From a virus (Duplodnaviria > Heunggongvirae > Uroviricota > Caudoviricetes): a DNA stretch of 64,000 nucleotides. Every line of letters starts with the position of its first letter. Position 1 is the first letter of the stretch. The position numbers and the translations under genes were made by a program. The notes below the pieces were generated by a model, which ran no database searches, had not been told where the DNA came from, and saw nothing but the letters and a program-made list of their open reading frames with translations. Positions 1 to 55,830 of this stretch are shown one piece after another. Location: IMG/VR virus record IMGVR_UViG_3300028591_000077. One strand, written 5' to 3'.

Positions 1-374
1 TCGAGTCTTTTCTTTTATAAAACTTGTACGAAATTTGTACTCGAATCGTACCCGTAACATTTGAAATTTTTCACTAAATAGTGGATTTTTGCGGAAAAAT
101 TCTCCGATGTTGGATCAAATTCATCATAAAATTTACAAAAAGTTATTGTATAATATAATGTGTTAAACAAGCTAACTCAAAAATAACACAATACTCCGAC
201 ACCACACACAACTCACAAATTCCTCCTTTCTTTCAATAATAATTTCCGTGAGCGTGGTGAAAAACTTATTACCTCCTTTCTACAGACAGGCTCGAAGTTC
301 GGTTATAGAGTCTGTCTTTTTTCATATCCGTCGATCCAGTACGATTCGGGGGTACCGCCGTACTGTACAATTAT

Positions 375-388
375 CACTAATTAGTGGG
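375..388. repeat. palindromic repeat CACTAATTAGTGGG, member of the CACTAAWTAGTRG family
   Basis: perfect 12-bp palindrome core; related copies at 72-84, 481-495, 3378-3390, 3514-3525, 3624-3636, 5191-5205, 6550-6564, 7116-7128, 7261-7273, about 7398-7420. Confidence 0.6.
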
Positions 389-634
389 ATTTACCGAATC
401 AAGCTGCCAAATTTATCAGTATCTGTCTACGATTTTAGGTCAGAGGAATCTGCGCGGGGATCCGATGCTTCGGCCCGAATCCACCAAATTAGTGGTTTTT
501 TGGAATCGTGCCGTACCCCCGCATGCATGTATCGCGTTTCCTTAACTATTATACGTGTGTGCACACGCATAAAAATTATTTACAAACATATGGAAATATG
601 ATATAATAATAGTATAAGAAAGAAGGAACTCACT

Positions 635-877
635 ATGAAGTACAGGAACAACGGAAAAACTTATGATGTTGAAGAAGTCAATCTCGCCGGAGCAATCATC
701 AATGTGAATGGAACTTCCATCACAGACTATAAGACTATGGAATACATTACTGGAGACAAGATGTATTCTGGTATGGGTTATTCAGTCTTCTGCGATTCCG
801 ACGAAATCTGCTTTGATACTTTTGAAGAAGCATATGACTTCGCGATGAATAAACAAAAGAATACTTTCAGGATTTAA
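635..877 (+). CDS. hypothetical early protein (80 aa)
   Basis: ORF with upstream TATAAT-like -10 and RBS; TAA stop. Confidence 0.45.
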   Translation: MKYRNNGKTYDVEEVNLAGAIINVNGTSITDYKTMEYITGDKMYSGMGYSVFCDSDEICFDTFEEAYDFAMNKQKNTFRI

Positions 878-943
878 TTTGTTTACTTTTTTATTAAAAC
901 GTGATATAATTATTATAGAGAAAAGATAAAGGGAGGAAAATTT

Positions 944-1567
944 ATGAAAGGTTATGTTATCTTATCTGGCTCTGTTGACGGAGCGACTTGTGAAGACGAT
1001 GGCTTCATCAATTGTGCAAACTTTGGAATGGTTGGTAGTCTTGCCTTAAAGACTAAGAAAGAAGCGATTGAAGTCAGAGACCAAACAATCGAGACTGACG
1101 TAGAGGACTTCAAAACATTATGGACTGAAGAAGATGGTTATTCCATTGAAGTCGGCTCTATGAACGAAGACGAGGAATTGGCTGACAAGTATGTCGACGT
1201 CTACTACAATGGAAGCGTCGTCAATGAGACAATCTATAAGATTGCTCCAGTCGAATTCAAAGAATCGAAGAGAATTCCTAATGAGTCCGATGCTTATAGA
1301 AACTTACTGTTATCTATGTTAAAGCACAATGGTTATTATGAGAACATCCGCAAATGGATGAAGCTTAAAGGAATCGACGTCGAGAAAGCGGCGAGTATGT
1401 TCAATACGGTTTGGGATAAGATTCCTGATGGTATGTCTGCTTACTATTTCTTAGATAGTGTGGAAGATGCGTTAACGAAACTAGACGAAGACAAATGGAA
1501 TCAATTCGACGACGGTTATGATTTCGTTGACTATCTATACGACAACGACGGTTGGAAAACATATTAA
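944..1567 (+). CDS. hypothetical acidic early protein (207 aa)
   Basis: ORF preceded by gatataat -10 and GGAGG RBS; all Trp encoded by TGG. Confidence 0.55.
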   Translation: MKGYVILSGSVDGATCEDDGFINCANFGMVGSLALKTKKEAIEVRDQTIETDVEDFKTLWTEEDGYSIEVGSMNEDEELADKYVDVYYNGSVVNETIYKIAPVEFKESKRIPNESDAYRNLLLSMLKHNGYYENIRKWMKLKGIDVEKAASMFNTVWDKIPDGMSAYYFLDSVEDALTKLDEDKWNQFDDGYDFVDYLYDNDGWKTY

Positions 1568-1636
1568 TTAAAAAAGGGGTTTACAAAAACCTCTTTTTAT
1601 GTTATAATATATGTAGAATAAAGAGAGGTAATTTAT

Positions 1637-1804
1637 ATGACTGATACGGAAATTAAAAAGAAACTAGAAGAACTCTATGATGTATTGGACGAACTTCAAG
1701 AGACTTCTACGGCACAAACCAATAGCACTTTAATGTGGGAAATCGGTGAAGCGATGGGTCATATCGATAATGCCATTGATTCAATAGATAAAGAGAGGAA
1801 ATAA
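1637..1804 (+). CDS. small hypothetical protein (55 aa)
   Basis: ATG after TTTACA-N17-TATAAT promoter and GAGAGG RBS; not in ORF track (<60 aa). Confidence 0.4.
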   Translation: MTDTEIKKKLEELYDVLDELQETSTAQTNSTLMWEIGEAMGHIDNAIDSIDKERK

Positions 1805-1807
1805 ATT

Positions 1808-2221
1808 ATGGGTTTTAGAAAGATTAGAACGATTCAAGTAAGCGAAAGAGTATTCGACTTAGTATGCGAAAACTTAGACAATGAAGCGACAGAAAGCCAT
1901 GTCAAGATCGCTGGTTATTTAGAGTGCTTTAACAATTGTCGTGAACAAGGATACGTCCTTCATGTCGATTCCGTCGATTGGGATAATCCTGAACACACTA
2001 AAGACTCACTAGTGATTTGGGCTTTCGAAGCTAGGAGCTCTGACGAGATCGTCGTGTCGTGGCAAACCGAATATCCGCATAATGGAATGTTCAGCGAAGA
2101 TACTTATAAGAATCGCAGAAAGTATTTCCATTACAACGAACTTCAAAAAGCCGCGGATTATATCATAAACTTAGTTAAAGAAAAGTTCATAAAAGAGTTT
2201 ACAAAGTCTAAGGGTATGTGA
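1808..2221 (+). CDS. hypothetical protein (137 aa); terminates at TGA lying inside the next gene's promoter
   Basis: ORF; stop TGA at 2219-2221 overlaps the gatataat -10 of the downstream gene. Confidence 0.5.
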   Translation: MGFRKIRTIQVSERVFDLVCENLDNEATESHVKIAGYLECFNNCREQGYVLHVDSVDWDNPEHTKDSLVIWAFEARSSDEIVVSWQTEYPHNGMFSEDTYKNRRKYFHYNELQKAADYIINLVKEKFIKEFTKSKGM

Positions 2222-2251
2222 TATAATATTTATAGAGAGTGAGGAACGATT

Positions 2252-2698
2252 ATGAACAAAAAGAATATCGTTAAAAAAGAAAACATTACGAAAATCGCGG
2301 ACTTCCTAGAAAAAGCCTGTGAACATTTCAAGAAAGACGGCGAAGGTTGTTATAACTATCCGTTGTCAGAAGACTTAGTGTTGGCGGTTGGCTGGTCTGA
2401 CGGATATGACATGGCCGACACCGACATCATCAAATCTAAAGAAGGCCAAAGACCACATGGTTCTTGGACTTGTGGTTATGCGGTTAATGCCGCGGTCAAA
2501 GTCAGAAACGACTGTGATTGTGCCGATTTCGATTTCTTAGACTATCCGTTCTACGAAGACGGCGAATGTTGGGATACTGGAGTATCTATGAAACCTGATT
2601 TGAAACGCAGAGATTACAAGAAATTGGCGAGATGGTTTTTAGAAGATTTCGTTGGAATGACGAATGCTCATGCAAAAGGAGAATTGAAATATGAATAA
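2252..2698 (+). CDS. hypothetical Cys-rich protein (148 aa)
   Basis: ORF with promoter and RBS gaggaa; TAA stop. Confidence 0.5.
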   Translation: MNKKNIVKKENITKIADFLEKACEHFKKDGEGCYNYPLSEDLVLAVGWSDGYDMADTDIIKSKEGQRPHGSWTCGYAVNAAVKVRNDCDCADFDFLDYPFYEDGECWDTGVSMKPDLKRRDYKKLARWFLEDFVGMTNAHAKGELKYE

Positions 2699-3008
2699 AG
2701 AATTAATCAAAGTAGAAGTCGAACAGCCTTGGTATGTTTGGCGAAAAGAAGGCGGCGCGGAAACCGGCAATAAGTTCAACCGTCCTACTGCCAAACGTAG
2801 GTATATCCGAATCTTGGCGTTGTGCCTTATCCCTCTTCCTGCCAAAGTCATTTTCCCTAACACCAAACATCCTATGATGGCTCAAGTCCGAGACATGTGC
2901 CGCGCAGGACTACTCGATAGGTATGAGGTCAAAGGCGAACGTGGCTACTACTACAAAACTACTCCTGCTGGTTTTGACCTCTTGGCCAAAGCCGTCAGCG
3001 CCAAATAA
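2691..3008 (+). CDS. hypothetical basic protein (105 aa)
   Basis: ORF overlapping previous stop (ATGAATAA). Confidence 0.45.
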   Translation: MNKELIKVEVEQPWYVWRKEGGAETGNKFNRPTAKRRYIRILALCLIPLPAKVIFPNTKHPMMAQVRDMCRAGLLDRYEVKGERGYYYKTTPAGFDLLAKAVSAK

Positions 3009-3027
3009 GGAAAGGAGGTAGGCTCAG

Positions 3028-3168
3028 ATGATATTCATGATATTCGTCATCATAGCGATTTGGATGGTTCCGCCTGGAACGATTCCGCTCTGGCTTCAAA
3101 TTTGTCTGACGATATTTGGCTCATTGCATGCCTTATTCCATCTTGTGGAAATCGGAAGTGATGATTAA
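3028..3168 (+). CDS. small hydrophobic membrane peptide (46 aa)
   Basis: GGAGG RBS + ATG; predicted TM helix; read by eye. Confidence 0.3.
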   Translation: MIFMIFVIIAIWMVPPGTIPLWLQICLTIFGSLHALFHLVEIGSDD

Positions 3169-3699
3169 GACTGTGAAAACAGTCTTTTTATTTTGCGGAA
3201 ATTGTCGAATCAGATTCCAACATCGTACCCGGAATTCGGGTAAATCCGACTATTTTAGTGGAATTTTACGTTTTTGGGTACCCACGATGCATGATTCGAC
3301 ATGAAAAAAGGGGTTTACAAACCGTCGGAAACATGTTGAAATGTACGTGGGGATGGCGCTGTCATCGTGGAAATATTCACTAATTAGTAGAATTTAGCTG
3401 TGTCATCTGATCAGCTGAATCAGATAGATTACCGAAAATACAGACAGGACTTATCGATATTGTAGCAGGACTGGCATCGGGGGATCGGATAAATTGTAAA
3501 TTTCCACTAAAAGCGAAAGCTTTGCAGCTCGGGGGATCCACCCACAAGACGTGAATGATTCGATTTTATGGGTTTACATCTATATATATAGATGTATGGG
3601 GCTGGATTCGGCAAAGCTATATTTACTAATTAGTGATTTTACCGGATACAGCTGATCCCCAAATTCGATTCGATGTTTACAAATCTTTGTTTTTATCGT

Positions 3700-3912
3700 A
3701 TAATATCTACAGTCAAGGTTAAGGTAAACACACCCTAGAGCCTTAGCGTTGTGGGTTCGACTCCTACCTGGAACATGGTGATAGCGCAAATAAGACCATG
3801 TGAAAGTCAGCCAGCGAACGGGATCTGGCATGAGAGCCAAGTGGTAAAAGTCCATGTTGTGTGTTGAGTGGCAGAGAAGACATTAGAAAGGTTTGCGACT
3901 TCTAATGTCTTT
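3700..3912 (+). ncRNA. candidate small RNA (about 200 nt) with tRNA-like T-arm motif GGGTTCGACTCC
   Basis: TTTACA-N17-TATAAT promoter at about 3670-3700; no ORF; strong terminator 3884-3912. Confidence 0.3.
3884..3912 (+). terminator. rho-independent terminator
   Basis: gacattagaa...ttctaatgtc stem followed by T7 run. Confidence 0.7.
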
Positions 3913-3985
3913 TTTTATTTTATTATTTACAATTATATTAAAGCGCGATATAATATTAATAGAGAGAAAGAGAAGGTAACCAATT

Positions 3986-4141
3986 ATGACAGTTAAAGAA
4001 AAGTTAATCCAAGAGTTTGGATGCGCGATTACCGCAGTGTTCGGCGATGAAGCGGACAAAGAAACCGAAGATGTTGAAATCAGCAAGTCAGACATCGAGG
4101 CCATAGCGAAGAAAGTTAAGTTCTACATGGACTTAGATTAA
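3986..4141 (+). CDS. small hypothetical protein (51 aa)
   Basis: gatataat -10, RBS agaagg, ATG; TAA stop. Confidence 0.35.
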   Translation: MTVKEKLIQEFGCAITAVFGDEADKETEDVEISKSDIEAIAKKVKFYMDLD

Positions 4142-4153
4142 GGAGAAGATAAC

Positions 4154-4672
4154 ATGGAAAAGAAAATTGTTACAGTATTTGGCAAGAAGAACTACTTACT
4201 TGGCCAAGATGCAGATAGAATAAACCATTATATTGAAGAGCCTAACTTCGATTGCGGTTGGTATTGGGGCGGACTTTATGTCGAGACCTTCACTAACAAC
4301 AGACAGCCAGAAAGATCGAAGGATATCAGTTCTCATTCCCACTTCGATTCTATGTTCTTGAAGTGCGACGGCGCGTTTGGACCTGAGGTGTTCAAGAGAA
4401 TCTTCAAGAAGACCGTGTTGAATTCCGACAAAGAGATGTGGAGACTCTTGGAATTAGCGAAGACCTTCTACACTCTTAGAAAGGCGGCTGACCTATTCCA
4501 CATCGGCGGAAGTCACATTACTACGAACGATTGCTACGACGTCATCAAAGACCAGAAGATGTATGAGGAAATAGTCAAAGTCAAACTTCCAGCCGTCATC
4601 TCTGAAATCATGAATCTCTTAGGCGGGGATACCAAGCCAGAAGATTTCGCCAAGAAAGTCGTGCTCGAATAA
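4154..4672 (+). CDS. hypothetical protein (172 aa)
   Basis: ORF with RBS aggagaag. Confidence 0.55.
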   Translation: MEKKIVTVFGKKNYLLGQDADRINHYIEEPNFDCGWYWGGLYVETFTNNRQPERSKDISSHSHFDSMFLKCDGAFGPEVFKRIFKKTVLNSDKEMWRLLELAKTFYTLRKAADLFHIGGSHITTNDCYDVIKDQKMYEEIVKVKLPAVISEIMNLLGGDTKPEDFAKKVVLE

Positions 4673-4873
4673 AAATATTAAAAAAGTATTTACAAAAAGT
4701 TAAATACATGATATAACGTTAATTGTGAGGTGAATGAATATGTCATATAAATCAAAAGCTAGAAAAGCGCGTAACTCATGGGTGTCAAAACACAAACGCC
4801 CATAAACGACATTCAAAAATAATATTAAAAAATTATAGGTGTATGTCGTATAGTATAATGGAGGCTAGATACA

Positions 4874-5077
4874 ATGGAAACTAAGAAACTTGTAGAAGCA
4901 TTCGAACAAGGCTACATCTATATCAAATCAAATCCTACAAAACAAGTTCCAGTCAAATCAATCGATTATAATGGTGTTGTTGTAGAAGTTAATCAAGCCG
5001 GTTATAAAACAACCGTTACATATACTGCCAATACTTATGGAACTTATTGGGGTAACAAACCAGAAGACATTTGTTAA
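4874..5077 (+). CDS. hypothetical protein (67 aa)
   Basis: ORF after tatagtataat -10 and ggagg RBS; terminator 5098-5135 downstream. Confidence 0.4.
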   Translation: METKKLVEAFEQGYIYIKSNPTKQVPVKSIDYNGVVVEVNQAGYKTTVTYTANTYGTYWGNKPEDIC

Positions 5078-5190
5078 AAAACTATACACTCTCTTCTTTC
5101 CTAGGACCTTGAGCAATCAAGGTCCCCTTTCTTTTTAGGCGTCAGAATCATAGACCTGAATCGGATGGGGGATCGAAAGCTTCGGCTATT

Positions 5191-5205
5191 TCCACTAATT
5201 AGTGG
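5191..5205. repeat. palindromic repeat CCACTAATTAGTGGG inside a GC-rich intergenic island
   Basis: flanked by GGGGATC motifs (5167, 5219) and enclosed by inverted repeat gtcagaatcat/atgattctg. Confidence 0.6.
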
Positions 5206-5333
5206 GATTTCGCCGATGTTGGGGATCCGCCGATGCACATGATTCTGGTCGCGGAATATAAAATTAAAAATAATATTTACAAAGTTAATTTAACATAGTA
5301 TAATATAAATAAAGAAAGAGAGAATTATATTTT

Positions 5334-5543
5334 ATGGACAACATCGAAATCGAAAACAGATATGGAAAGTTATATGTCAAAGTGCCAGCATTGGTTGCTC
5401 ATAACAATTCCGAAACATGGAGCACAAGTTATTCTACCGAAACCGTCGGAGTTCCATTAGAAAGCATCATCGGTATTCTACAATTGGTTGGGGTTCAAAT
5501 CAATCTCAACGACGACTTCTATAAGAAAGTAGGTAATCTATAA
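5334..5543 (+). CDS. hypothetical protein (69 aa)
   Basis: ORF; stop overlaps next start (TAATG). Confidence 0.4.
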   Translation: MDNIEIENRYGKLYVKVPALVAHNNSETWSTSYSTETVGVPLESIIGILQLVGVQINLNDDFYKKVGNL

Positions 5544-6094
5544 TGGAAACATTAATCTTCAACAAACCATTCAAAGACTTCTTGAAAAGAATTGGGTTCA
5601 AAAAAGAAAACCATTCTGCATGCGAACCAGACAACGAAATCTTCTATATCAAAGAATATGGAGATGAATATGGTGTATTTGGTCACATCTGCATTGAACA
5701 AAATTGGGATGGAAAAGATTTATCTCTTATAGTCGTTTGGCCGAAGGTAAGCGACTTCAATGGTTCATTCGATTTAGAGACCGTCACGCTTGAACAAGCA
5801 GAAGACCAAATCAAAAAGGTCGAAGAGATCATGGCGAAGATGAAAGTTGATTTACTTAAGTTAGTGAAGAAGGCGAGAGAGCTTCAAGCTGTAGACAATA
5901 AGTTCGAGTTCAAGTCTTACTCCGCTGAGATGAGGGAAGACGGTTATGCCGAAGTCTTCGGACATAACGTTAGAGGTCAAAGCATCAGTCTTGGCATCAC
6001 TACTAAAAAGATTAATGACTTCACCCCTGAAGATGTTAAACAAGAACTCTTACATGAGGTCATTCAAAACTTCTTCAAAAATAAGTTGGCATAA
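5543..6094 (+). CDS. hypothetical protein (183 aa)
   Basis: ORF translationally coupled to previous. Confidence 0.55.
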   Translation: METLIFNKPFKDFLKRIGFKKENHSACEPDNEIFYIKEYGDEYGVFGHICIEQNWDGKDLSLIVVWPKVSDFNGSFDLETVTLEQAEDQIKKVEEIMAKMKVDLLKLVKKARELQAVDNKFEFKSYSAEMREDGYAEVFGHNVRGQSISLGITTKKINDFTPEDVKQELLHEVIQNFFKNKLA

Positions 6095-6173
6095 AAACCA
6101 ACTTTTTATTTACAAAGTAATGTTATAATGATATAATATATATAGAGTTAAGAAAGAAAGGATATTAGAAATT

Positions 6174-6449
6174 ATGAACTTAACAAAAATTAATGGATGT
6201 TATTCAAAAGAATTAAGAGAGAATTGTTATAACATCAAACTTCTCGTCAAAGATAGAAATACTTCAGTCAAGACAATGAAACAATGGATTAATAATATCA
6301 TTGAGCCAGCTTTTATTGAGGCAAAAGCCAAAGCTAGATTTAGAACCAATCTATCTAATTGTCAAACAAAAGAAGAGATTGACCAATTATGTCAAGATGT
6401 CGTTCTTCATGGAATGTATTACACACCAAAGAAAAGACAAGTTCGATAA
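6174..6449 (+). CDS. hypothetical protein (91 aa)
   Basis: ORF after tttacaaa...gatataat promoter. Confidence 0.4.
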   Translation: MNLTKINGCYSKELRENCYNIKLLVKDRNTSVKTMKQWINNIIEPAFIEAKAKARFRTNLSNCQTKEEIDQLCQDVVLHGMYYTPKKRQVR

Positions 6450-6629
6450 GTCTTGAATAACTTGAGAGTTCGTAAGAACTCTTTTTTATTTACATTTCTC
6501 ACAGGACATGTTATCATGAGATCAGGGAGTACGGAAGCTTCGGAAAAAACCACTAAAGAAGTGGATAAGCCGAAGCCGGATGGTACCCCCCACGCCGAAT
6601 GGTTCTGAAAACTTTTTATAAAAAAACGT

Positions 6630-6665
6630 TTACAAAGTTCTAATATCTTGGTATAATATAAATGA
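6630..6665 (+). promoter_or_regulatory. sigma70-like early promoter TTTACA-N17-TATAAT (representative of about 15 in the first 12 kb)
   Basis: tttacaaagttctaatatcttggtataatat; same architecture before genes at 944, 1637, 2252, 4740, 6174, 7530, 9204, 11400. Confidence 0.55.
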
Positions 6666-6686
6666 AGATAAGAGAGGTAATTAAAA

Positions 6687-7037
6687 ATGAACGAAAACGA
6701 AAAACAATTGGTAAAACAATTCTTCGAACTTAAAGCCAAACAAATAATCTGCAAAGTATGGTTGATGATTAATCAGAAACCTGGATACACCAATGATGAA
6801 GTTGGGTTGATGATGAAGGTAATGGAAGTTCAATCCAAACTCGAAACAGTCGAATCGAACATCTTGGACTTACTCAAAGCAAACGAAACCTTCTTCATGA
6901 ATTCGGACTTAGAAGAGTTATCGAAGCAACAAGAGTTCAAAGTCTCGTTCGACAAACAAAAAGAATACTCAAAAGAATTGTTAGGTTACGAAACTACAAT
7001 CGAAGACTTGATTGAAAAACTTCCAAGACGTGGTTAA
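6687..7037 (+). CDS. hypothetical protein (116 aa)
   Basis: ORF after tttacaaa-N17-tggtataat promoter and gagagg RBS. Confidence 0.45.
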   Translation: MNENEKQLVKQFFELKAKQIICKVWLMINQKPGYTNDEVGLMMKVMEVQSKLETVESNILDLLKANETFFMNSDLEELSKQQEFKVSFDKQKEYSKELLGYETTIEDLIEKLPRRG

Positions 7038-7075
7038 TTCCATGTCTTTTTTATTTATGAAGTTCCGCACATAGG

Positions 7076-7109
7076 TCATGATGAATCTGGGAGATCGGAT
7101 TCATCATGA
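7076..7109. repeat. 12-bp perfect inverted repeat tcatgatgaatc / gattcatcatga (hairpin)
   Basis: seen directly; sits at the start of intergenic island 7040-7450. Confidence 0.6.
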
Positions 7110-7289
7110 TTTTTCACTAAATAGTGGATAAAGCTTTTTGGGATGGCCCCCCTCGGATTAGCATCAGGAGTATCTTGCAAAAAAGTATTTACAATTCCAA
7201 GAGAATATGTTACCATGAGGTTGGGAAAGAAATTGGGGATCGCCGAAGAATCAAATAAACCACTAAATAGTAGAATTTAGCTGTCATCC

Positions 7290-7312
7290 GTACGATTCGG
7301 CGGTACGATTCG
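7290..7312. repeat. tandem direct repeat GTACGATTCG x2 (a third copy at 333-342)
   Basis: seen directly. Confidence 0.55.
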
Positions 7313-7529
7313 ACCTGTTGGTAAGACATAATTAGGACGATTTGACCTATGCAGTATCCTGCGGGGATCCCGATGCGCCTAGAAGAACGACTATTTAGTA
7401 GAATTAGTGGTTTAAGAATCCGGATGTGGATCGCCCCAGACTATGTGGTTAGAACTTTTATTAAATAATTGTTTACAAATATATATTTATATGGTATAAT
7501 ATTTATAGAAGATAAGGAGAGACTAAGTT

Positions 7530-7730
7530 ATGAAATGTTGTATCTGCGGAATAGAAATTAATGGTTATGGCAATAATCCTCAAGGTGCTGTTTGGAAGAC
7601 TCCAGAAGGTGAAATCTTTGAAGCAGAGTTTGATGCTGATGCCAGATGCTGTGACGAATGTAATACTAGGTTCGTTATTCCTGGTAGAATCTATAGAATG
7701 AACAAGGGGCACAAACATGATTCTAACTAA
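7530..7730 (+). CDS. Cys4 zinc-ribbon protein (66 aa)
   Basis: CxxC...CxxC pattern; promoter and RBS upstream. Confidence 0.45.
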   Translation: MKCCICGIEINGYGNNPQGAVWKTPEGEIFEAEFDADARCCDECNTRFVIPGRIYRMNKGHKHDSN

Positions 7731-8010
7731 GAAACATAAATGGTTCCTCTTTGATAATAACTATGTCACTGCCAAAGTCTTGGACGCCGCTTATTTAGGT
7801 GCTTGGCAAGACTACTTCATCAACAACTTCAGATGGGAGTTAAGCGAGAATAAAGATGCCTATGGTTTCTATAGACTATATCTTAAGGACAAGAAGACCG
7901 ACGATATAGAATATACTATTGGAATTAATTGGCAAGGTGATGACTTCCACAAGATGCTAACTTATATGCAAGACCCTAATAGTCCTAAACTAACTGCACA
8001 AAGGAGATAA
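7717..8010 (+). CDS. hypothetical protein (97 aa)
   Basis: ORF overlapping previous. Confidence 0.45.
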   Translation: MILTKKHKWFLFDNNYVTAKVLDAAYLGAWQDYFINNFRWELSENKDAYGFYRLYLKDKKTDDIEYTIGINWQGDDFHKMLTYMQDPNSPKLTAQRR

Positions 8011-45769: not shown

Positions 45770-47107
45770 ATGTTGTCAAAATTTAGTCAATTTGTCAATG
45801 AGATTTTAGCTGATAATTCAAGATTGGCTAAAATTGCTGTTTTAGAAAAATATAAGGATGATGAATCCGTTAGGTATTTTTTACAGTTTGTTTATGACCC
45901 ATATGTTACAACCGGATTATCCGATAAGAAATTAAATAAAGATGTCGAGATCTTTAGCTATAGCTTATTTGATGCCGACGGTAATTTTAATGAAGATTGT
46001 GATACTATTTTTCAGCTTGACTGCTCAGAGGATGAGGATAAGGCAATCTTTGAATATATTAAAGAACATAATACCGGTAGGGATAGTGATATTAGAACTG
46101 TTCAGAATTTCAAGAAAAGTCATTTTAATAAATGCCCCGAAATGCTTGATTTGTTTGATAGAATAATTACTAAGAATCTTCAATTAGGTATTGATGCGAA
46201 AACTATTAATAAAGTTATTCCAGGTCTTATTCCTGAATTTAATGTTATGCTTGCAAATAAATATTTCGATAAACCAGAAGTTATTGATGGTAGAGAGTTT
46301 GTTATCACAACAAAAATTGATGGTTCAAGAATTATCGCAATGAAGGATAATGGCCAAGTTAGTTTTTGGACTCGTCAAGGACAAAAATACGAAGGCCTTA
46401 TTGACTTAGAAGAAGCTCTTAAAAATATTAGTGAAGATAATTTTGTACTAGATGGCGAAATCGTTGCCATGAATACAGATAAAGAAGACACTTATAAAAA
46501 TACCATGAAGCTTAGTAGAACAAAAGAGCAAGCTAAGCATGGTCTTAAAATGTTAGTCTTCGATTATATGCCAATTGCTAATTTCAAGCTTCAGTGTTGC
46601 CCAATGACTTATAGTGCAAGAAGAAGTACTTTATCTGCAATATTTGACCTTAATGGACAACATCTTGCACCTTATTTTGAATTATTGCCAATGCTTTATA
46701 GAGGCACAGATACTAATAAAATAATCGAACTTTTAAACGAGCAAACAGCCAAAGGTGAAGAAGGAATCATGATTAACATCTGTGATGCCCCTTATGATTT
46801 CAAAAGAAGCAACAATCTTCTTAAAGTAAAGAAATTCCAGGATACTGAAGTTAAGATTGTTGGATATGAAGAAGGTGTTAATAAATTAGCTGGAACATTG
46901 GGCGCATTTATATGCGAATATAAAGATAATATTGTGCGTGTAGGCTCCGGATTAAGCGATGAAGATAGAGCTTATTTCTGGGCTAATCAAGATAAATATC
47001 TAAATAAATATATCACGGTCAAATATTTTGAAGAAAGCTATGATTCTAAGACAAATCTTCCTTCATTAAGATTCCCAATTTATATGAGGGTTAGAGAAGA
47101 CATTTAA
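45770..47107 (+). CDS. ATP-dependent DNA ligase
   Basis: motif I KIDGSR, motif III LDGEIVAM, motif IV EGIMINI, motif V LLKVKKF. Confidence 0.75.
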   Translation: MLSKFSQFVNEILADNSRLAKIAVLEKYKDDESVRYFLQFVYDPYVTTGLSDKKLNKDVEIFSYSLFDADGNFNEDCDTIFQLDCSEDEDKAIFEYIKEHNTGRDSDIRTVQNFKKSHFNKCPEMLDLFDRIITKNLQLGIDAKTINKVIPGLIPEFNVMLANKYFDKPEVIDGREFVITTKIDGSRIIAMKDNGQVSFWTRQGQKYEGLIDLEEALKNISEDNFVLDGEIVAMNTDKEDTYKNTMKLSRTKEQAKHGLKMLVFDYMPIANFKLQCCPMTYSARRSTLSAIFDLNGQHLAPYFELLPMLYRGTDTNKIIELLNEQTAKGEEGIMINICDAPYDFKRSNNLLKVKKFQDTEVKIVGYEEGVNKLAGTLGAFICEYKDNIVRVGSGLSDEDRAYFWANQDKYLNKYITVKYFEESYDSKTNLPSLRFPIYMRVREDI

Positions 47108-47158
47108 TTAAAATATTATTGCTAAATTATATTAGTTACTGGTAAAGGAGAATATAAT

Positions 47159-47419
47159 ATGGCAAAAGGTAAAGGCAGTAAATCAAGTGGTGGTCCACAT
47201 AAAAGTCATGGTCCTAAGAGACACATGTTTAGATGGGCTGGCCCAATGAAACATGAGTTTGCTAAATCTGGTCTTCTAAGCAAATACTATGATTTTGAAT
47301 CTTGGCAATTAGCTATGGCAGCAAGAGGCTGTAAAAAAGCTGATTACAATGAGTTTAAGACATTCGTATTGCTAAGCATGGAAGAAAAGAGAGCATACTT
47401 CGCAAATCTTAAAAAATAA
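47159..47419 (+). CDS. small basic protein (86 aa)
   Basis: ORF after TTGCTAAATTAT motif; terminator 47405-47437 follows. Confidence 0.45.
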   Translation: MAKGKGSKSSGGPHKSHGPKRHMFRWAGPMKHEFAKSGLLSKYYDFESWQLAMAARGCKKADYNEFKTFVLLSMEEKRAYFANLKK

Positions 47420-47527
47420 GGCTCAAATTGAGCCTTTTTATTTATAAAAATAAAAATCGTATAATACTATGTTGGGTTCCCGGAATGGTCCATAGCATTC
47501 TAGCCCGTAAGTGGAGAAAGAGAAAAT

Positions 47528-47794
47528 ATGGATAAGAAAAGCACAAAGGGGCTGACTGCTGTTGAGGCAAGAGCGCTCGCAGACAAGGCTGAAGTTCTTT
47601 TAGGAAGAATTTATAAAGGCATCAAAGAACAAGCAAGAGAAAGCATGACTACGCTTAATTATTATCTCTCTGATGCAAGTGCGATAGCTGTTGAAACGGT
47701 AGTAAATACTCTAAAGATTGAAGGCTATCAGGTAGAAGCTGTTACGAACAAGACGGATGATGTTGTTGAAACAGTAATCAAAATTGCTTGGTAA
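47528..47794 (+). CDS. hypothetical protein (88 aa)
   Basis: ORF with 70-nt structured leader. Confidence 0.45.
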   Translation: MDKKSTKGLTAVEARALADKAEVLLGRIYKGIKEQARESMTTLNYYLSDASAIAVETVVNTLKIEGYQVEAVTNKTDDVVETVIKIAW

Positions 47795-47862
47795 TCAGGA
47801 AAAGAATTATAATTAGAGGGTTTATTGTTTACAAACCCTCTTTTTTATTGTATAATAATAGT

Positions 47863-48255
47863 ATGAGATATTTCATTTCTGGCCATGGTTGGCTTTCACA
47901 AGAACAATTCAATCAATACTACGTCCCAGTCTTAGAGCGAATCTTAGAATACGATTTAAGTAATTCAGAATTCGTTGTTGGAGATTTCAAAGGCGTAGAT
48001 ATTATAGCGCAGCAATGGCTTGTCGATCACGGTAAGGCAGAACAGCTTACAGTATATCACATGTTTGATAAGCCAAGAAACCTTGCGACTGGTTGTGAGC
48101 ATTATTGTGAAATCAAGACAGTTGGCGGATTCAAGACTGATGAAGAAAGAGATGCAGCCATGACGGCTAATTCGGACTTCGATATCGCATTCGTGTTTAG
48201 AAAGAATTCAGGCACAGAGAGAAATATCAAAAGACGACATATGAAAGGAGCCTAG
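47863..48255 (+). CDS. hypothetical protein (130 aa), leaderless
   Basis: ATG right after ttgtataataatagt. Confidence 0.45.
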   Translation: MRYFISGHGWLSQEQFNQYYVPVLERILEYDLSNSEFVVGDFKGVDIIAQQWLVDHGKAEQLTVYHMFDKPRNLATGCEHYCEIKTVGGFKTDEERDAAMTANSDFDIAFVFRKNSGTERNIKRRHMKGA

Positions 48256-48258
48256 AAG

Positions 48259-49683
48259 ATGTTTGTTAAAAAAGTAGAATTTAATTGGACAGATACAAAT
48301 CTATTAAGTAGCTTACTTGGCCTATTTAATGCTTTTAAGCACGCAGATAAAGAATTATATCTTGTTGGCGGTTGCGTTCGAGATTTACTTCTAGGCAAAA
48401 CTCCAAAAGATTATGATTTATGCACAAACGCCACCCCTGATGAAGTTAAGGCTATTTGTGAAAAGACCGAATTAAAGACTTTTGATTCCGGTATTAAGCA
48501 TGGAACATTAACTGTTATTGATGATTTATATCATCAAAGCTTTGAGATTACAACCTACCGTATCGATGGAAAATATTCAGACGGTCGTCATCCTGATGAA
48601 GTTGTTTTTACTCCTTCATTAGAAGAAGACTTAAAACGTCGCGACTTCACAATCAACTCTTTCGCTTATGCTTTATCAAAACAAGAATTAATTGCTTTAG
48701 ATGAGTCTTATTTCAAAGACTTAGAATATGGCATTATTCGAACTGTTGGAAATCCAGAAGAAAGATTTAAAGAAGATGCTTTGAGAATGCTTAGAGCGTT
48801 CAGATTCATGGCGCAACTTAATTTCAGCCTTGATGCCAATACATTTAATGCTATTAAGGCTTTAAATTCACTTCTTGTAAATGTTTCTAAGGAAAGAATT
48901 AGAGATGAGCTTACAAAGATTGTTATGAGCGATAATCCACAAGTTTTAGAGCTTATTGTTATTGCTAAGCTAGAGATATATATTTTTGATGGTAAAACTC
49001 CATTAACAGATTGCGTCAATTGCCAACATGATAATCCATGGCATTATACTGACGTATTTCATCACACAATGGATGTCATTAAAAGAGTGCCTAAAAAGTT
49101 TGAGCTAAGATGGGCTGCATTGTTCCATGATTTTGGAAAACCAGCAACAAAGCAACTAAAAGAGGGAACTACAAATCATTACAATTATCACGGCCATCCA
49201 GACGTTTCTGCTGAAATGGCCCTGGTTTTGATGGATATTTTGAAGTTTTCAAATGACCAAAAAGACTTAATTTATAAGTTTGTTAAATATCATGATACTG
49301 ATTTAGTGTCTTGCAGAAATGCAACGTTCAAAAATGTTCTTGTTGAGATTGGTGTTGAACATTTTCCTGACTTTATTAAATTAAAGCTAGCAGACGCAAT
49401 GGCACATCAAATCACAAAAGATACAAAGTGGGCTATCGATGCAATTAGCAAACTTTATGAAAGATTTGATAAAACAGTCGTCGAATCACAAGCCTTGACA
49501 GTTAAGGATTTAGCAATCAACGGTTATGATATAATCAATGATGGATTTTTACAAGGTAAAGAAATCGGCGATTGCCTAAGATGGATGCTTGATATCGTGT
49601 TAGAGCACCCAGAATATAACACACGAGAAAAATTGCTTGAGCTTCTTCAAACGTTCAAGGAGATGTCTTTTCAGGCAAGCTAA
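48259..49683 (+). CDS. cca: CCA-adding tRNA nucleotidyltransferase with HD domain
   Basis: LVGGCVRDLLLGKTPKDYDL pol-beta head motif; downstream HD motifs HHTMDV / FHDFGKP. Confidence 0.8.
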   Translation: MFVKKVEFNWTDTNLLSSLLGLFNAFKHADKELYLVGGCVRDLLLGKTPKDYDLCTNATPDEVKAICEKTELKTFDSGIKHGTLTVIDDLYHQSFEITTYRIDGKYSDGRHPDEVVFTPSLEEDLKRRDFTINSFAYALSKQELIALDESYFKDLEYGIIRTVGNPEERFKEDALRMLRAFRFMAQLNFSLDANTFNAIKALNSLLVNVSKERIRDELTKIVMSDNPQVLELIVIAKLEIYIFDGKTPLTDCVNCQHDNPWHYTDVFHHTMDVIKRVPKKFELRWAALFHDFGKPATKQLKEGTTNHYNYHGHPDVSAEMALVLMDILKFSNDQKDLIYKFVKYHDTDLVSCRNATFKNVLVEIGVEHFPDFIKLKLADAMAHQITKDTKWAIDAISKLYERFDKTVVESQALTVKDLAINGYDIINDGFLQGKEIGDCLRWMLDIVLEHPEYNTREKLLELLQTFKEMSFQAS

Positions 49684-49695
49684 GAGGACAAAACA

Positions 49696-50256
49696 ATGAA
49701 AGTGATATTCTTAGACATAGATGGCGTTATGAATGACGAGCTCGCATACAGGGCTTGGAAGGAAAACCCAGACAAAGAGACCTTTGAAGATTCTGACGTT
49801 CCTACGGATCAGCATATGGCTCAATTAAAGAGAATTGTTGATGCGACTGGCGCGGAGATTGTTTTGTCCTCAGCCTGGAGATGCTCTATTTGGGGCATGA
49901 GGACTGTTCTGGAGCGCCTTAATGACTATGGCTTAAAGTTATTAAGCGTTACTGATGAAGGTGTCCCAGAATCAGTTTTAGACGCCTCTGGCTTTGGTGA
50001 TTTAGAACCAAGAAGTGTGTCTAAGCGTTCTTGGGACGGTTCCAACACCATGATTGTTAATGATCGTGGTGCAGAAATTGCCGGTTGGATGCTAAGACAA
50101 AAGAATAAAGGAGTCAATATTGAATCATTCGTTATCTTAGATGATGAGGATGTCGATATTGTTCAATACTATCCGAAAAATCTTATCAAAACAAGCTATA
50201 TGGCTGGCTTGACTGATGAAGATGTTGAAAAATGTATCAGTATACTAAATAATTAA
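49696..50256 (+). CDS. HAD-superfamily phosphatase (paralog A)
   Basis: FLDIDGVMN motif I, VLSSAWR; paralogous to 55165 ORF. Confidence 0.55.
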   Translation: MKVIFLDIDGVMNDELAYRAWKENPDKETFEDSDVPTDQHMAQLKRIVDATGAEIVLSSAWRCSIWGMRTVLERLNDYGLKLLSVTDEGVPESVLDASGFGDLEPRSVSKRSWDGSNTMIVNDRGAEIAGWMLRQKNKGVNIESFVILDDEDVDIVQYYPKNLIKTSYMAGLTDEDVEKCISILNN

Positions 50257-50257
50257 A

Positions 50258-51235: not shown

Positions 51236-51513
51236 TGTTCGAGAGAATAGTGGAGCTCATGGACCTAAACCGTGAGCTCCATATTGAAGTAAATAAAACT
51301 ATTGCTGATATTAGAGCTAAATATCCTAATATTTACAAAAGACAAAAAGGAATCAGAGTTCCTTATACTTATACTAAGTATGATACTAAATATCTCATCT
51401 TTGATTATGATACAGGATTTTTCTGTATAAAGTTTGGAGATGGTAAGGCGGCAGGTTTTGATTTGAGAAAATATAAGAAAACTTGGGCCTTTAGCAAGGA
51501 GGACTTCGAATAA
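51235..51513 (+). CDS. hypothetical protein (92 aa)
   Basis: ORF. Confidence 0.45.
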   Translation: MFERIVELMDLNRELHIEVNKTIADIRAKYPNIYKRQKGIRVPYTYTKYDTKYLIFDYDTGFFCIKFGDGKAAGFDLRKYKKTWAFSKEDFE

Positions 51514-51629
51514 TGGGAGTATTTACAGTAATCGGCATTATCACAGTTTCAACGATAGCAGGATGTCTTGTTGGAGTGCCAGTCGGAACCATGCTTGGCC
51601 GTTTAATTGAAAATTATTTAAATAAATAG
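51513..51629 (+). CDS. small TM peptide (38 aa)
   Basis: ATG overlapping TAATG; hydrophobic. Confidence 0.3.
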   Translation: MGVFTVIGIITVSTIAGCLVGVPVGTMLGRLIENYLNK

Positions 51630-51639
51630 GAGATACATT

Positions 51640-52062: not shown

Positions 52063-52063
52063 T

Positions 52064-52899: not shown

Positions 52900-52990
52900 T
52901 TTAAAAAATCAGCAAAATTGCTGATTTTTTATTATTTTAACCGTATAATATAATGCAGTTAAGTTAAACATTATTCGGAGGAGCAATTAA

Positions 52991-54079: not shown

Positions 54080-54130
54080 AAAGCCGGTTATTCCGGCCTT
54101 TTTTATTGTATAATAAAATGAGGTATTTTT

Positions 54131-54976: not shown

Positions 54977-54982
54977 GGAGGA

Positions 54983-55162: not shown

Positions 55163-55164
55163 TC

Positions 55165-55809: not shown

Positions 55810-55830
55810 TTAATAAATTTCTGCTAAATT

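What the first reader, a model, noticed from the sequence alone, without database searches (positions are those of the whole stretch)
1..7500. GC-rich intergenic islands built from a palindromic repeat family (CCACTAATTAGTGG), GGGGATC and GTACGATTCG motifs
Islands at 1-620, 3300-3700, 5140-5260, 6490-6600 and 7040-7450 (100-600 nt each, very long for a phage) contain at least 11 copies of CACTAAWTAGTRG (perfect palindrome core CACTAATTAGTG), at least 8 copies of GGGGATC, and a longer shared unit CACTAAWTAGTAGAATTTAGCTGT (3378 and 7261). They also carry long-range inverted repeats enclosing whole islands (5142/5241 gtcagaatcat/atgattctg; 7076/7098). Each island lies between a terminator and the next early promoter. 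They may be operator arrays for a phage repressor, iteron-like origin elements, MITE-like insertions, or small structured RNAs.
Basis: seen in the sequence. Interest (0 to 1): 0.6.

Follow-up and report, generated by a model that had tools for sequence, protein, structure and literature searches.

The report
Nested-palindrome repeat islands between early genes
The non-coding islands are real: a previously undescribed family of about 120-base palindromic repeat modules that sits between the early genes of a group of rumen/gut giant phages, probably as protein-binding control sites, though a role as RNA hairpins is not excluded.

Summary
CACTAAWTAGTRG (9 hits against 0.33 expected) and GGGGATC (8 against 1.8) occur only in bases 1-7500 of the 64-kb window.

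The islands are built from 12 modules of about 70-115 nt. Each is a nested imperfect palindrome: GGGGATC or GTAC, then TTCGG, then CCACTAA|TTAGTGG, then CCGAW, then GATCCCC.

Four modules sit directly behind a second class of sigma-A promoter (TTTACA-N15-ATG-NNANNAT-G). In close relatives the modules form tandem arrays with a 127-nt period.

The half-site TTAGTG(G) and strong GATC enrichment recur in islands of relatives down to about 41% protein identity. GATC and GTAC are depleted in the rest of these genomes.

Islands mark the break-points of gene-cassette gain and loss between relatives.

No match was found to Rfam, tRNAs, CRISPR arrays or DnaA boxes.

Both strands fold equally well, and G.U-type mismatches (58) do not outnumber A.C-type (49). 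Short perfect palindromes are over-represented.

A conserved winged-helix protein is encoded next to the largest island.

I lean towards composite DNA operator or road-block sites (confidence 0.35). Transcribed RNA hairpins follow at 0.30. This is a new variant of a known kind, and its function is unproven.

The parts
26..116 (.). module u72: core TCACTAAATAGTGG (71-84), GTAC-rich left arm, right arm CCGATGTTGGATC
   Evidence: The 33-nt centre is 97% identical to L072 9425-9457. The closing stem CCGT/GCGG in the window corresponds to CTGC/GCAG in L072.
337..400 (.). module u375: core TCACTAATTAGTGG (374-387), preceded by the GTACGATTCG/GGTACC hairpin
447..526 (.). module u482: GCGGGG...CCCCGC outer arms, GGCCCGAATCC/GGAATCGTGCC inner arms, core CCACCAAATTAGTGG (480-494)
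   Evidence: dG -27.5, z -1.66. The orthologue in L064 has a replaced left arm.
3196..3300 (.). module u3248: core GACTATTTTAGTGG (3248-3261). Its right side is the junction of a 1.65-kb cassette indel relative to L064.
3314..3342 (+). island promoter TTTACA-N17-TGTTGAAAT. The predicted start lies just before the G-run of module u3378.
   Evidence: It is near-identical, spacer included, in L063 and L064, while the surrounding island differs by 15-17% from L064/L065.
3349..3440 (.). module u3378: core TCACTAATTAGTAG (3377-3390), followed by the CTGATCAGCTG palindrome
3478..3545 (.). module u3505: GGGGGATC...GATCCACCC arms, a single half-site CCACTAA (3504-3510), and an AAAGC-GAAA-GCTTT palindrome
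3576..3595 (.). 20-bp palindrome ACATCTATATATATAGATGT. It is kept in L062, L063 and L064. It resembles the CTATATATAG repeats of the large non-coding regions in L056 and L060.
3597..3662 (.). module u3624: GGGGCTG...CAGCTGATCCCC arms, ATTCGG/CCGGAT inner arms, core TTACTAATTAGTGA (3623-3636)
   Evidence: (z -1.71)
5139..5251 (.). module u5193, the most complete copy: GAATCAT/ATGATTC, ATCGG/CCGAT, GGATC/GATCC and TCGGC/GCCGA arm pairs around the perfect core CCACTAATTAGTGG (5192-5205). It has no promoter of its own.
   Evidence: dG -49.6 with z -3.65 on +; dG -40.4 with z -3.87 on -. It shows 0 differences in 126 nt against L064 and L065.
6489..6517 (+). island promoter TTTACA-N17-(TG)TATCAT, overlapping the T-run of the upstream terminator
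   Evidence: It is conserved in L064, L065, L066 and L060.
6524..6592 (.). module u6551: GGGAGTAC/GTACCCCC and GCTTCGG/CCGAAGC arm pairs, core CCACTAAAGAAGTGG (6550-6564)
   Evidence: z -3.77 on +; z -5.22 on -. All 20 predicted pairs are kept in 4 orthologues, with 2 wobble-preserving changes.
7054..7082 (+). degenerate island promoter (TTTATG...TCATGAT). The L062 orthologue has TTTACA...ATGTCATGATG.
7076..7160 (.). module u7115: hairpin TCATGATGAATC/GATTCATCATGA around GGGAGATC, core TCACTAAATAGTGG (7114-7127), then GGGATGGCCCCCC
7188..7216 (+). island promoter TTTACA-N17-(TG)TACCAT
   Evidence: (D13)
7232..7312 (.). module u7261: ATCGCCGAA/TTCGGCGGT arms, core CCACTAAATAGTAG (7260-7273), two GGTACGATTCG boxes on the right
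7359..7440 (.). module u7389: GGGGATCC/GGATCGCCCC arms, core CGACTATTTAGTAG plus AATTAGTGGTT (7388-7412)
   Evidence: (z -2.13). The L065 orthologue has a different left arm, GGGCGATC, that is perfectly complementary to GATCGCCC.
2691..3008 (+). candidate binding protein: 105-aa winged-helix protein encoded one small gene upstream of the largest island
   Evidence: 46 homologues. The recognition-helix region, residues 61-77, is the best-conserved part. AF2 pLDDT is 79.8. Foldseek finds MarR/PadR/ArsR folds with TM 0.5-0.56 and probability up to 0.99, but E about 0.1. Pfam HTH_27 reaches only E 0.14. It co-occurs with TTAGTG/GATC islands in 5 of 5 lineages where it was seen.

Best explanation
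The islands are arrays of a clade-specific nested-palindrome module, 70-115 bp long here and 127 bp per unit in the tandem arrays of relatives.

Anatomy. Each module is centred on two head-to-head copies of the half-site TTAGTG(G), which reads CCACTAA|TTAGTGG. It is flanked symmetrically by A/T-rich arms, then by TTCGG...CCGAW boxes, then by GGGGATC...GATCCCC boxes (GTAC in some copies). The module was multiplied by tandem duplication together with a moderately strong sigma-A promoter. In promoter-bearing copies the core therefore lies at about +26 to +40.

Proposed mechanism. I think the modules most likely act on double-stranded DNA as composite operator or road-block sites for a sequence-specific dimeric protein. 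The best candidate is the conserved winged-helix protein encoded at 2691-3008. Its binding would gate the secondary 'island' promoters. It would also block transcription that leaks through the terminator of one early-gene cassette into the next. SPbeta SPBRE/MrpR operators and mycobacteriophage stoperators work in a comparable way. As dispersed homologous sequences, the modules also serve as cross-over points for cassette gain and loss.

Shown: the anatomy, the motif enrichment, conservation of the half-site across the clade, strand-symmetric folding, excess of short palindromes, the conserved promoters, the indel break-points, and the winged-helix fold of the neighbouring protein.

Inferred: that any protein binds the core, that it is this protein, and that binding affects transcription.
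For: 1. The core is a perfect 12-14-bp dyad made of two 7-mers.
2. The 7-mer, not the hairpin, is what persists across the clade. The two half-sites abut (spacing 0) in the window lineage. They are 6 and 11 bp apart in L108. They occur singly in L060 and L056, and as TTAGTGC in L161.
3. A 33-nt centre is 97% identical between phages whose proteins are 54-70% identical.
4. No strand-specific signature exists. G.U-type mismatches number 58 against 49 A.C-type. Minus strands fold as well as or better than plus strands.
5. Short perfect palindromes are enriched. 6-mers number 172 against 115 +/- 11 in shuffles, and 8-mers 83 against 30 +/- 6. They include symmetric extensions of GATC and GTAC such as CTGATCAG, CGGATCCG and ATGTACAT.
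6. GATC and GTAC are 8-18 times denser in islands than elsewhere in the window, where they are depleted. GATC enrichment holds in every lineage. This points to a property of DNA.
7. The most conserved module, u5193, has no promoter and follows a strong terminator.
8. The motif vocabulary is conserved while motif order is scrambled between lineages.
9. A conserved winged-helix protein with a highly conserved recognition-helix region lies beside the largest island. It co-occurs with such islands in 5 of 5 lineages.
10. A precedent exists in a large Firmicute phage: SPBRE bound by MrpR (PMC10516654).
Against: - Complementarity extends 30-50 nt on each side of the core and is kept when arm sequences differ. 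Examples are GATC to GTAC on both arms of u6551, GGGCGATC/GATCGCCC in L065, and CCGT/GCGG against CTGC/GCAG. A simple operator does not need this.
- Predicted transcription starts fall 2-8 nt before the left arm in all promoter-bearing copies. That arrangement suits an RNA unit.
- Cores lie 50-130 bp upstream of the strong promoters at no fixed distance, so they cannot occlude them.
- Arrays of 4-6 modules are more than a gate needs.
- The link to the winged-helix protein is only adjacency and co-occurrence within one clade. Its Foldseek E-values are about 0.1, and Pfam gives no significant hit.
- L060 and L072 have islands but no homologue of this protein in the 10-20 kb fetched.
Confidence: 0.35

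Rival explanations
1. Transcribed RNA hairpins. The modules would act in the plus-strand transcript as one of three things: 5'-terminal stem-loops of leaders made from the island promoters, inter-cassette stem-loops that are processed (RNase III type) or that stabilise RNA, or a multi-hairpin platform whose apex binds an RNA-binding factor.
For: - Long irregular hairpins of 25-32 bp are predicted, with z down to -3.9.
- The fold of u6551 is kept in 4 orthologues. All stem changes give G.U or repair a mismatch.
- Arms differ in sequence between copies yet stay complementary.
- The G-run starts 5-6 nt after the -10 region in 9 of 9 promoter-bearing copies across 5 genomes.
- All modules are co-oriented with transcription.
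- C(UUCG)G and GAAA tetraloop-like motifs are present.
- Precedents exist: the conserved RNase III hairpins between T7 early genes (from my own knowledge), and the phage SP82 RNase III targets (Panganiban and Whiteley 1983, cited in PMC4838370).
Against: - There is no excess of G.U over A.C (58 against 49). The minus strand folds as well or better.
- Most modules follow strong terminators and lack promoters, including the best-conserved one.
- No terminator follows the modules, so they are not stand-alone sRNA genes.
- In distant relatives the conserved 7-mer is single-stranded in context or closes loops of varying length.
- The excess of short perfect palindromes has no RNA rationale.
- There is no Rfam match.
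Confidence: 0.3
2. No dedicated function. The islands would be a palindromic minisatellite that expands by slippage and by template-switch 'palindrome correction'. It would persist in dispensable spacers, and its main consequence would be homology-driven shuffling of early-gene cassettes, as with T4 PeSL-type mobile regulatory cassettes.
For: - Tandem arrays have an exact 127-nt period (L066 1240/1367/1494/1621).
- Divergence is mosaic, from 0% to 17%.
- Arms are exchanged between modules.
- Islands bound all three cassette indels seen.
- The same neighbouring genes have no island between them in L056.
- Palindromes are nested at all scales.
Against: - The half-site and GATC richness are retained down to about 41% protein identity, while everything around them turns over.
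- A 33-nt centre is 97% identical across distant phages.
- The island promoters are conserved including their spacers.
- Sites that the rest of the genome avoids are concentrated here.
Confidence: 0.15
3. Cis-acting sites for DNA entry, packaging or replication. Three models are possible: an analogue of the untranslated repeat regions, or injection stop signal, of the T5 terminal repeat; a methylation-sensitive pac region like P1 pac with its TGATCA elements (P1 details from my own knowledge); or R-loop-type origins made of a promoter plus a G-run.
For: - Several large untranslated regions packed with nested palindromes and repeats lie among early genes that carry strong promoters, as in T5 (10.1101/866236).
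- There are GATC clusters and TGATCAG/CTGATCAG elements.
- The islands are confined to 7.5 kb of a 20-kb early region.
- Weak promoters are followed by G-runs.
- Relatives have a 2-kb non-coding region with related palindromes.
Against: - There are no DnaA boxes in the islands.
- GC skew shows no inflection.
- Motif order is not conserved, unlike in T5.
- Five dispersed islands are hard to reconcile with a single stop or pac site.
- The genome ends are unknown.
Confidence: 0.12
4. RNA anti-CRISPR (Racr, or solitary repeat unit). The apex AWWUUYCACUAAWUAGURGRAU would mimic a CRISPR repeat, for example the Cas12a 5' handle AAUUUCUACU...GUAGAU, and would titrate host Cas proteins.
For: - The apex resembles the Cas12a handle as I recall it from memory. 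For example, UAAAUUUCCACUAACUAGUAGGAU in L066 compares with UAAUUUCUACUAAGUGUAGAU.
- Some units lie directly downstream of promoters, as described for solitary repeat units and Racrs (PMC10651486).
- The likely hosts are rumen or gut Firmicutes.
Against: - A scan of 185,579 species genomes for arrays of CACT-N4-AGTRGRAT spaced like CRISPR repeats found no array with this repeat.
- The stem differs from every Cas12a repeat I know.
- The modules are 3-4 times longer than a repeat.
- Many units carry mismatches in the would-be handle.
- Distant relatives keep only the 7-mer.
Confidence: 0.03
5. MITE-like mobile insertions, or promoters for a phage-encoded T3/SP6-like RNA polymerase (CACTAAAG followed by purines).
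For: - The modules have terminal inverted repeats.
- CACTAAAGAAG and CACTAAAGAGAAG resemble the T3 -7 to +6 region, as I recall it from memory.
Against: - Paralogues are at most about 77% alike.
- The indel junction examined shows only a 5-nt ACGAT microhomology, not a target-site duplication.
- The units are never found in genes or outside early spacers.
- The upstream -17 to -8 region is not conserved.
- Pfam on 10 of the 26 ORFs of 200 aa or more found no RNA polymerase.
- The motif is absent from the other 56 kb.
Confidence: 0.05

Closest known systems
SPBRE operators of Bacillus phage SPbeta, bound by the master repressor MrpR (PMC10516654)
   Same: A short conserved motif is repeated in about ten intergenic regions of the early part of a large Firmicute phage. 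It was found in silico long before its binding protein was known.
   Different: SPBRE is a 15-bp site in promoter regions of a temperate phage, and its binder has a tyrosine-recombinase fold. Here the core sits inside 70-115-bp nested palindromes and tandem arrays, downstream of weak promoters and 50-130 bp upstream of strong ones. The only candidate binder is a winged-helix protein.
Stoperators of mycobacteriophages L5 and Bxb1 (from my own knowledge: Brown et al. 1997)
   Same: Many repressor sites lie in short intergenic spaces and act on transcription passing through them, not at the promoter.
   Different: Stoperators are asymmetric 13-bp sites, orientation-dependent, and spread over the whole genome. 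These cores are dyad-symmetric and confined to 7.5 kb.
Untranslated repeat regions R1-R3 and the injection stop signal of the T5 terminal repeat (10.1101/866236)
   Same: Several large non-coding regions lie among the first-expressed genes. They are full of nested palindromes and of direct and inverted repeats. They are conserved while neighbouring ORFs turn over, and their function is unproven.
   Different: T5 regions keep motif order and carry eight paired DnaA boxes. Here motif order is scrambled between lineages and there are no DnaA boxes. Whether the islands lie in a terminal repeat is unknown.
RNase III processing hairpins between early genes of T7 (from my own knowledge) and of Bacillus phage SP82 (Panganiban and Whiteley 1983, cited in PMC4838370)
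   Same: They form a family of irregular hairpins of 50 nt or more with shared sequence, in the spacers of the early region, all in the sense orientation.
   Different: Those sites lie inside polycistronic transcripts. Here each island follows a terminator. The apex sequence is the conserved part, and there is no plus-strand signature.
PeSL mobile regulatory cassettes of T4-type phages (from my own knowledge: Arbiol et al. 2010)
   Same: Repeated terminator/promoter-type spacers flank small early ORFs and serve as cross-over points for modular shuffling.
   Different: The PeSL analogue here is the ordinary TTTTTTATTTACAA...TATAAT junction, which is present at more than 30 sites. The islands are an extra element found in only a subset of spacers.

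Membership tests
Phage repressor operator families (SPBRE-like) | Short conserved motif repeated in intergenic regions, above chance | tested here: met
   9 hits against 0.33 expected, all in spacers of 1-7500. The motif is conserved in relatives.
Phage repressor operator families (SPBRE-like) | Sites overlap or adjoin the promoters they control | tested here: inconclusive
   The core lies at about +26 to +40 of four island promoters. It lies 50-130 bp upstream of the strong promoters with no fixed phase, and eight modules have no promoter.
Phage repressor operator families (SPBRE-like) | A cognate DNA-binding protein binds the motif | not testable with these tools
   Only a candidate was found: the winged-helix protein at 2691-3008.
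Mycobacteriophage stoperators | Asymmetric site, one orientation relative to transcription, distributed genome-wide | tested here: not met
   The core is dyad-symmetric. No copies occur in the other 56 kb.
Known structured RNA families (Rfam), tRNA, tmRNA | Match to a curated covariance model or a tRNA model | tested here: not met
   No hit at gathering threshold in 64 kb, and no relevant hit at E up to 5 in 1-8000. ARAGORN found 0 genes.
Functional structured RNA (generic) | Strand-specific signature: G.U tolerated, A.C not; sense strand folds better | tested here: not met
   58 G.U-type against 49 A.C-type mismatches. Minus strands fold with z -3.87 and -5.22, against -3.65 and -3.77 for plus strands.
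Functional structured RNA (generic) | Pairing conserved through compensatory change | tested here: inconclusive
   u6551: 20 pairs kept, 2 wobble changes, 0 double changes in 4 orthologues. Compensatory examples exist between paralogues and in L065, L064 and L072. Many 'stems' are the same symmetric boxes inherited by descent.
RNase III processing sites (T7, SP82) | Irregular hairpin of 20 bp or more, lying inside an early polycistronic transcript | tested here: inconclusive
   The hairpins are present, but each follows a predicted intrinsic terminator. Cleavage is not testable.
RNA anti-CRISPR (Racr, solitary repeat unit) | Sequence and structure similarity to the repeat of a CRISPR array in a host | tested here: not met
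   The genome-contig scan found no array with this repeat.
MITE | Near-identical dispersed copies with target-site duplications and empty or filled sites | tested here: not met
   Copies are at most about 77% alike. The junction shows only an ACGAT microhomology. The units stand in tandem arrays.
Iteron-type replication origin | Direct repeats of 17-22 bp in helical phase, DnaA boxes, skew inflection | tested here: not met
   The period is 117-136 nt. DnaA boxes number 9 against 9.6 expected, with none in the islands. Cumulative skew is monotonic.
T5-type terminal-repeat repeat regions (injection stop signal) | Large untranslated regions with nested palindromes among the first-expressed genes | tested here: met
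T5-type terminal-repeat repeat regions (injection stop signal) | Conserved motif order, paired DnaA boxes, position at the boundary of the first-transferred DNA | tested here: not met
   Motif order is scrambled between lineages. There are no DnaA boxes. The genome ends are not known, so that part is not testable.
Integron attC sites | R''/R' boxes (RYYYAAC...GTTRRRY) at the hairpin base, and an integron integrase | tested here: not met
   The base boxes are GGGGATC/GATCCCC. No integrase family was among the Pfam hits of the 30 window or L064 proteins scanned.

The most novel reading that the evidence does not exclude
The islands would be a new kind of DNA element. They would be clusters of nested palindromes that deliberately concentrate the very sites the rest of the genome avoids (GATC, GTAC and their symmetric extensions), within the first-expressed segment.

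Such clusters could sense or exploit host restriction-modification or methylation state. Alternatively, they could arrest or meter DNA entry, as proposed for T5.

A separate reading is also not excluded: the arrays are transcribed into multi-hairpin sponge RNAs that titrate a host defence or RNA-binding protein.
Probability: 0.12. Interest if true: 0.8.

Novelty: new variant of a known kind. Interest (0 to 1): 0.45.

Why it matters
Large phages of gut and rumen Firmicutes are almost unstudied, and how they time expression of their early genes is unknown.

This family supplies a concrete, testable cis-element:
- a 14-bp dyad;
- a defined second promoter class;
- a candidate winged-helix binder.

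It also supplies a marker for cassette shuffling in the early region.

One pattern is unexplained and quantitative. GATC and GTAC are depleted genome-wide but piled up in these spacers in every lineage examined. That links the islands to restriction-modification or methylation biology.

If the modules prove to act as RNA, they would instead be a new phage-encoded hairpin-array RNA.

Tried and rejected
- Nucleotide searches of INPHARED phages, near and distant: no match.
- IMG/VR protein search: nothing.
- IMG/VR motif search: 51 single chance hits only.
- Exact-protein look-up: returned only 100%-identical copies of the same phage.
- MAFFT alignments of paralogous modules (A1, A3): not structurally consistent, with a one-column register shift between subfamilies. 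RNAalifold found only the apical stem, and I built no covariance model.
- Plus-versus-minus MFE on fixed windows: uninformative and contaminated by coding false positives.
- tRNA-like or D-loop reading of AGTGG: ARAGORN found nothing.
- DnaA-box reading of GTGGATAA: only 2 modules fit, and there is no consensus box in the islands.
- Spo0A-box reading of TTCGACA/TGTCGAA: 1 + 1 copies in the islands against 3 + 3 outside them (one of those within 1-8000), so not enriched as such. It is part of the GGTACGATTCGAC box.
- 'T-rich on both flanks' asymmetry: disappeared with 31 units. The flanks are themselves complementary.
- First regex for island promoters: returned nothing, and was rewritten.
- Pfam and PHROGs on 20 small early proteins: no significant domain.

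Full report
**What the window is.** The first 8 kb is a run of small plus-strand genes. Nearly every gene has its own near-consensus sigma-A promoter (TTTACAA-17-TATAAT), a strong Shine-Dalgarno sequence and usually an intrinsic terminator. More than 30 such promoters span from 8.9 kb upstream of the window to position 11.4 kb. Further along, the window encodes a Pnkp/RNA-ligase fusion, a CCA-adding enzyme and a DNA ligase.

No sequenced phage matches at the DNA level. The window is 100% identical to part of a 131-kb ENA contig and to Logan and JGI contigs. Relatives, found through the 172-aa protein at 4154-4672, are 237-273-kb phages. The only cultured phages with that protein infect [Clostridium] innocuum, Thomasclavelia ramosa and, distantly, Xanthomonas.

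**The observation.** CACTAAWTAGTRG has 9 matches with up to 1 mismatch, against 0.33 expected. GGGGATC has 8 against 1.8. All lie within 1-7500, and a fuzzy search of the 14-mer finds nothing in the other 56 kb. GTACGAT and CGATTCG also occur only here.

The islands lie between a terminator and the next strong promoter. They are not coding, because orthologues differ by 1-2-nt indels. Two boundaries need correction. '1-620' contains a strong promoter and a terminated non-coding transcript (165-320) between modules. '3300-3700' is really 3169-3672.

**Anatomy.** When the copies are aligned on the core, a G-run (GGGGGATC, GGGAGTAC or GGGGGTACC) starts 26-27 nt upstream in most of them. TTCGG-type boxes follow on the left, with CCGAW and GATCCCC/GTACCCC boxes on the right. 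Each module is therefore a long imperfect palindrome. With 31 distinct units from six genomes, the flanks next to the core are themselves complementary, for example CGAAATATC-CACTAA...TTAGTG-GATTTTTTCG.

Several modules fold into one architecture of outer, inner and apical stems:
- u5193: dG -49.6 kcal/mol over 120 nt, z -3.65.
- u6551: z -3.77.
- u7389: z -2.1.
- Other modules: z between -1.7 and +0.3.

Four modules sit immediately behind a second promoter class, TTTACA-N15-ATG-NNANNAT-G (3314, 6489, 7188, and a degenerate copy at 7054). In 9 of 9 such copies across five genomes the G-run starts 5-6 nt after the -10 region. The spacer of the 3314 promoter is conserved too.

**Relatives.** A graded series was obtained:
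- L064: 96-97% DNA identity.
- L065: 93%.
- L062 and L063: 80-89%.
- L066: 74-90%.
- L060, L072, L056, L069, L108 and L161: 41-72% protein identity.

In L066 the cores stand exactly 127 nt apart (1240, 1367, 1494, 1621). In L063 six cores are 117-138 nt apart.

Islands evolve mosaically. Module u5193 is identical in L064 and L065, where genes differ by 2.8% and 7.1%. Island 3169-3672 differs by 15-17%.

Islands are also the break-points of every structural difference seen:
- L064 carries three extra genes plus modules where the window has 3201-3304.
- L062 runs from u5193 straight to the orthologue of gene 6687.
- L065 lacks 6615-7382.

In distant relatives the islands persist but are rebuilt. 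L060 has GAAGCTAATTAGTGGTTTT, GTACGATG and CAGATGAA. L056 has TTTTAGTGGTTG. L108 has CACTAA-N11-TTAGTGG twice, with TTAGTGG-N6-CCACTAA between them. L161 has TTAGTGC. What survives is a vocabulary: the half-site TTAGTG(G), GATC, often GTAC, and CAGATGA. Order and structure do not survive.

**A DNA-level peculiarity.** Outside the islands, GATC (1.04 per kb) and GTAC (0.56 per kb) are the most depleted 4-bp palindromes of the window. Inside the islands they reach 8.8 and 10.2 per kb. GATC enrichment holds in every lineage, at 8-24 against 0.9-3.5 per kb. Perfect 6- and 8-bp palindromes are over-represented relative to shuffled islands (172 against 115 +/- 11; 83 against 30 +/- 6). They include symmetric extensions of both sites.

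**RNA or DNA?**

For RNA:
- The u6551 fold is kept in four orthologues, with only wobble-preserving or mismatch-repairing changes.
- Arms can differ yet stay complementary (L065 GGGCGATC/GATCGCCC; CCGT/GCGG against CTGC/GCAG in L072).
- Transcription starts coincide with the hairpin base.

Against a plus-strand RNA:
- G.U-type and A.C-type mismatches are equal, 58 against 49.
- Minus strands fold as well or better.
- The best-conserved module has no promoter and follows a strong terminator.
- No terminator follows any module.
- The conserved 7-mer appears with spacings of 0, 6 and 11, or singly. This is how half-sites of a DNA-binding protein behave.

The gene at 2691-3008, one small gene upstream of the largest island, encodes a protein with 46 homologues. 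Its most conserved stretch is the predicted recognition-helix region. Its model (pLDDT 79.8) matches MarR/PadR/ArsR winged-helix regulators, with TM 0.5-0.56 but weak E-values. It co-occurs with TTAGTG/GATC islands in all five lineages where it was seen.

**Other readings tested.**
- No Rfam family and no tRNA.
- A resemblance of the apex to the Cas12a crRNA handle prompted a scan of 185,579 species genomes for CRISPR-like arrays of the core. None was found.
- No DnaA boxes in the islands and no GC-skew inflection.
- No MITE hallmarks.

**Verdict.** This is a real, previously undescribed, clade-specific family of nested-palindrome modules. I favour composite DNA operator or road-block sites, with the winged-helix protein as candidate binder (0.35). 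Transcribed RNA hairpins are close behind (0.30). Neutral palindromic minisatellite or recombination scars (0.15) and entry, packaging or replication sites (0.12) follow. The closest known systems are SPBRE/MrpR, the T5 terminal-repeat repeat regions, and the RNase III hairpins of T7 (from my own knowledge) and SP82 (cited). No defining test places the islands in any of these families.

Noticed in passing
window 132-320: The strong promoter at 132-159 drives a non-coding transcript of about 150 nt that ends at the terminator at 285-320. The transcript carries two CU-rich boxes, TTCCTCCTTTCTTTC (219-233) and TTACCTCCTTTCTA (268-281). From my own knowledge, these resemble the anti-Shine-Dalgarno 3' end of Firmicute 16S rRNA. 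It could be an sRNA that masks ribosome-binding sites. It is conserved in L064.
   Followed up: partly
window 3676-3915: The strong promoter at 3676-3704 drives a non-coding transcript of about 200 nt that ends at the terminator near 3880-3915. It contains a T-arm-like GTGGGTTCGACTCCTAC (3761-3777), but ARAGORN and Rfam find nothing. Bases 3856-3874 are 79% complementary to 194-212 of the other non-coding transcript (I22).
   Followed up: partly
window 4740-4805: A 21-codon ORF has its own strong promoter (4689) and ribosome-binding site. It encodes the very basic peptide MSYKSKARKARNSWVSKHKRP. It is conserved in L062 and L063 with conservative changes. It resembles an arginine/lysine-rich nucleic-acid-binding peptide.
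   Followed up: no
window 8000-64000: GTAC (0.56 per kb, about 0.17 of expectation) and GATC (1.04 per kb, about 0.3 of expectation) are specifically depleted, whereas other 4-bp palindromes are near expectation. This is consistent with avoidance of host GATC- and GTAC-specific restriction.
   Followed up: partly
window 45770-62962: An RNA-repair-type gene set is present: DNA/RNA ligase (45770-47107), CCA-adding enzyme (48259-49683), and a kinase-phosphatase-Rnl1 ligase fusion (60683-62962). There are no tRNA genes in the 64 kb.
   Followed up: no
L056 1206-3318; L060 17680-18030: Relatives carry a non-coding region of 0.4-2.1 kb. It is packed with CTATATATAG-type palindromes and GCCGAAATTGCC repeats and ends in CGCGCACAC...ATAAAAA. 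The window keeps only a single 20-bp copy (3576-3595) and the tail GTGTGCACACGCATAAAAA (555-573). This may be an origin or a genome-end region.
   Followed up: no
L060 16638-16710: In L060 the island promoter is followed at once by a terminator-like hairpin, GAAGCTGGATCACAGCTTC plus T6, and then by the half-site CACTAAAG. This is an attenuator-like layout. The window orthologue has collapsed it to the 8-bp palindrome GAAGCTTC.
   Followed up: no
L151 4100-4700, L160 2200-2450, L152 290-400, L147 1490-1750: Unrelated bacterial genomes carry tandem arrays built on CACT-N4-AGTGGAAT. Peribacillus has 52-nt units, and a Nitrospiraceae MAG has 21-bp iteron-like units. This suggests a recurrent palindromic protein-binding motif type.
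   Followed up: no
window -8912 to 11373 (with L052): More than 30 near-consensus promoters are present. Most are fused to the T-run of the preceding terminator (TTTTTTATTTACAA). The layout resembles the promoter/stem-loop cassettes of T4-type early regions.
   Followed up: partly
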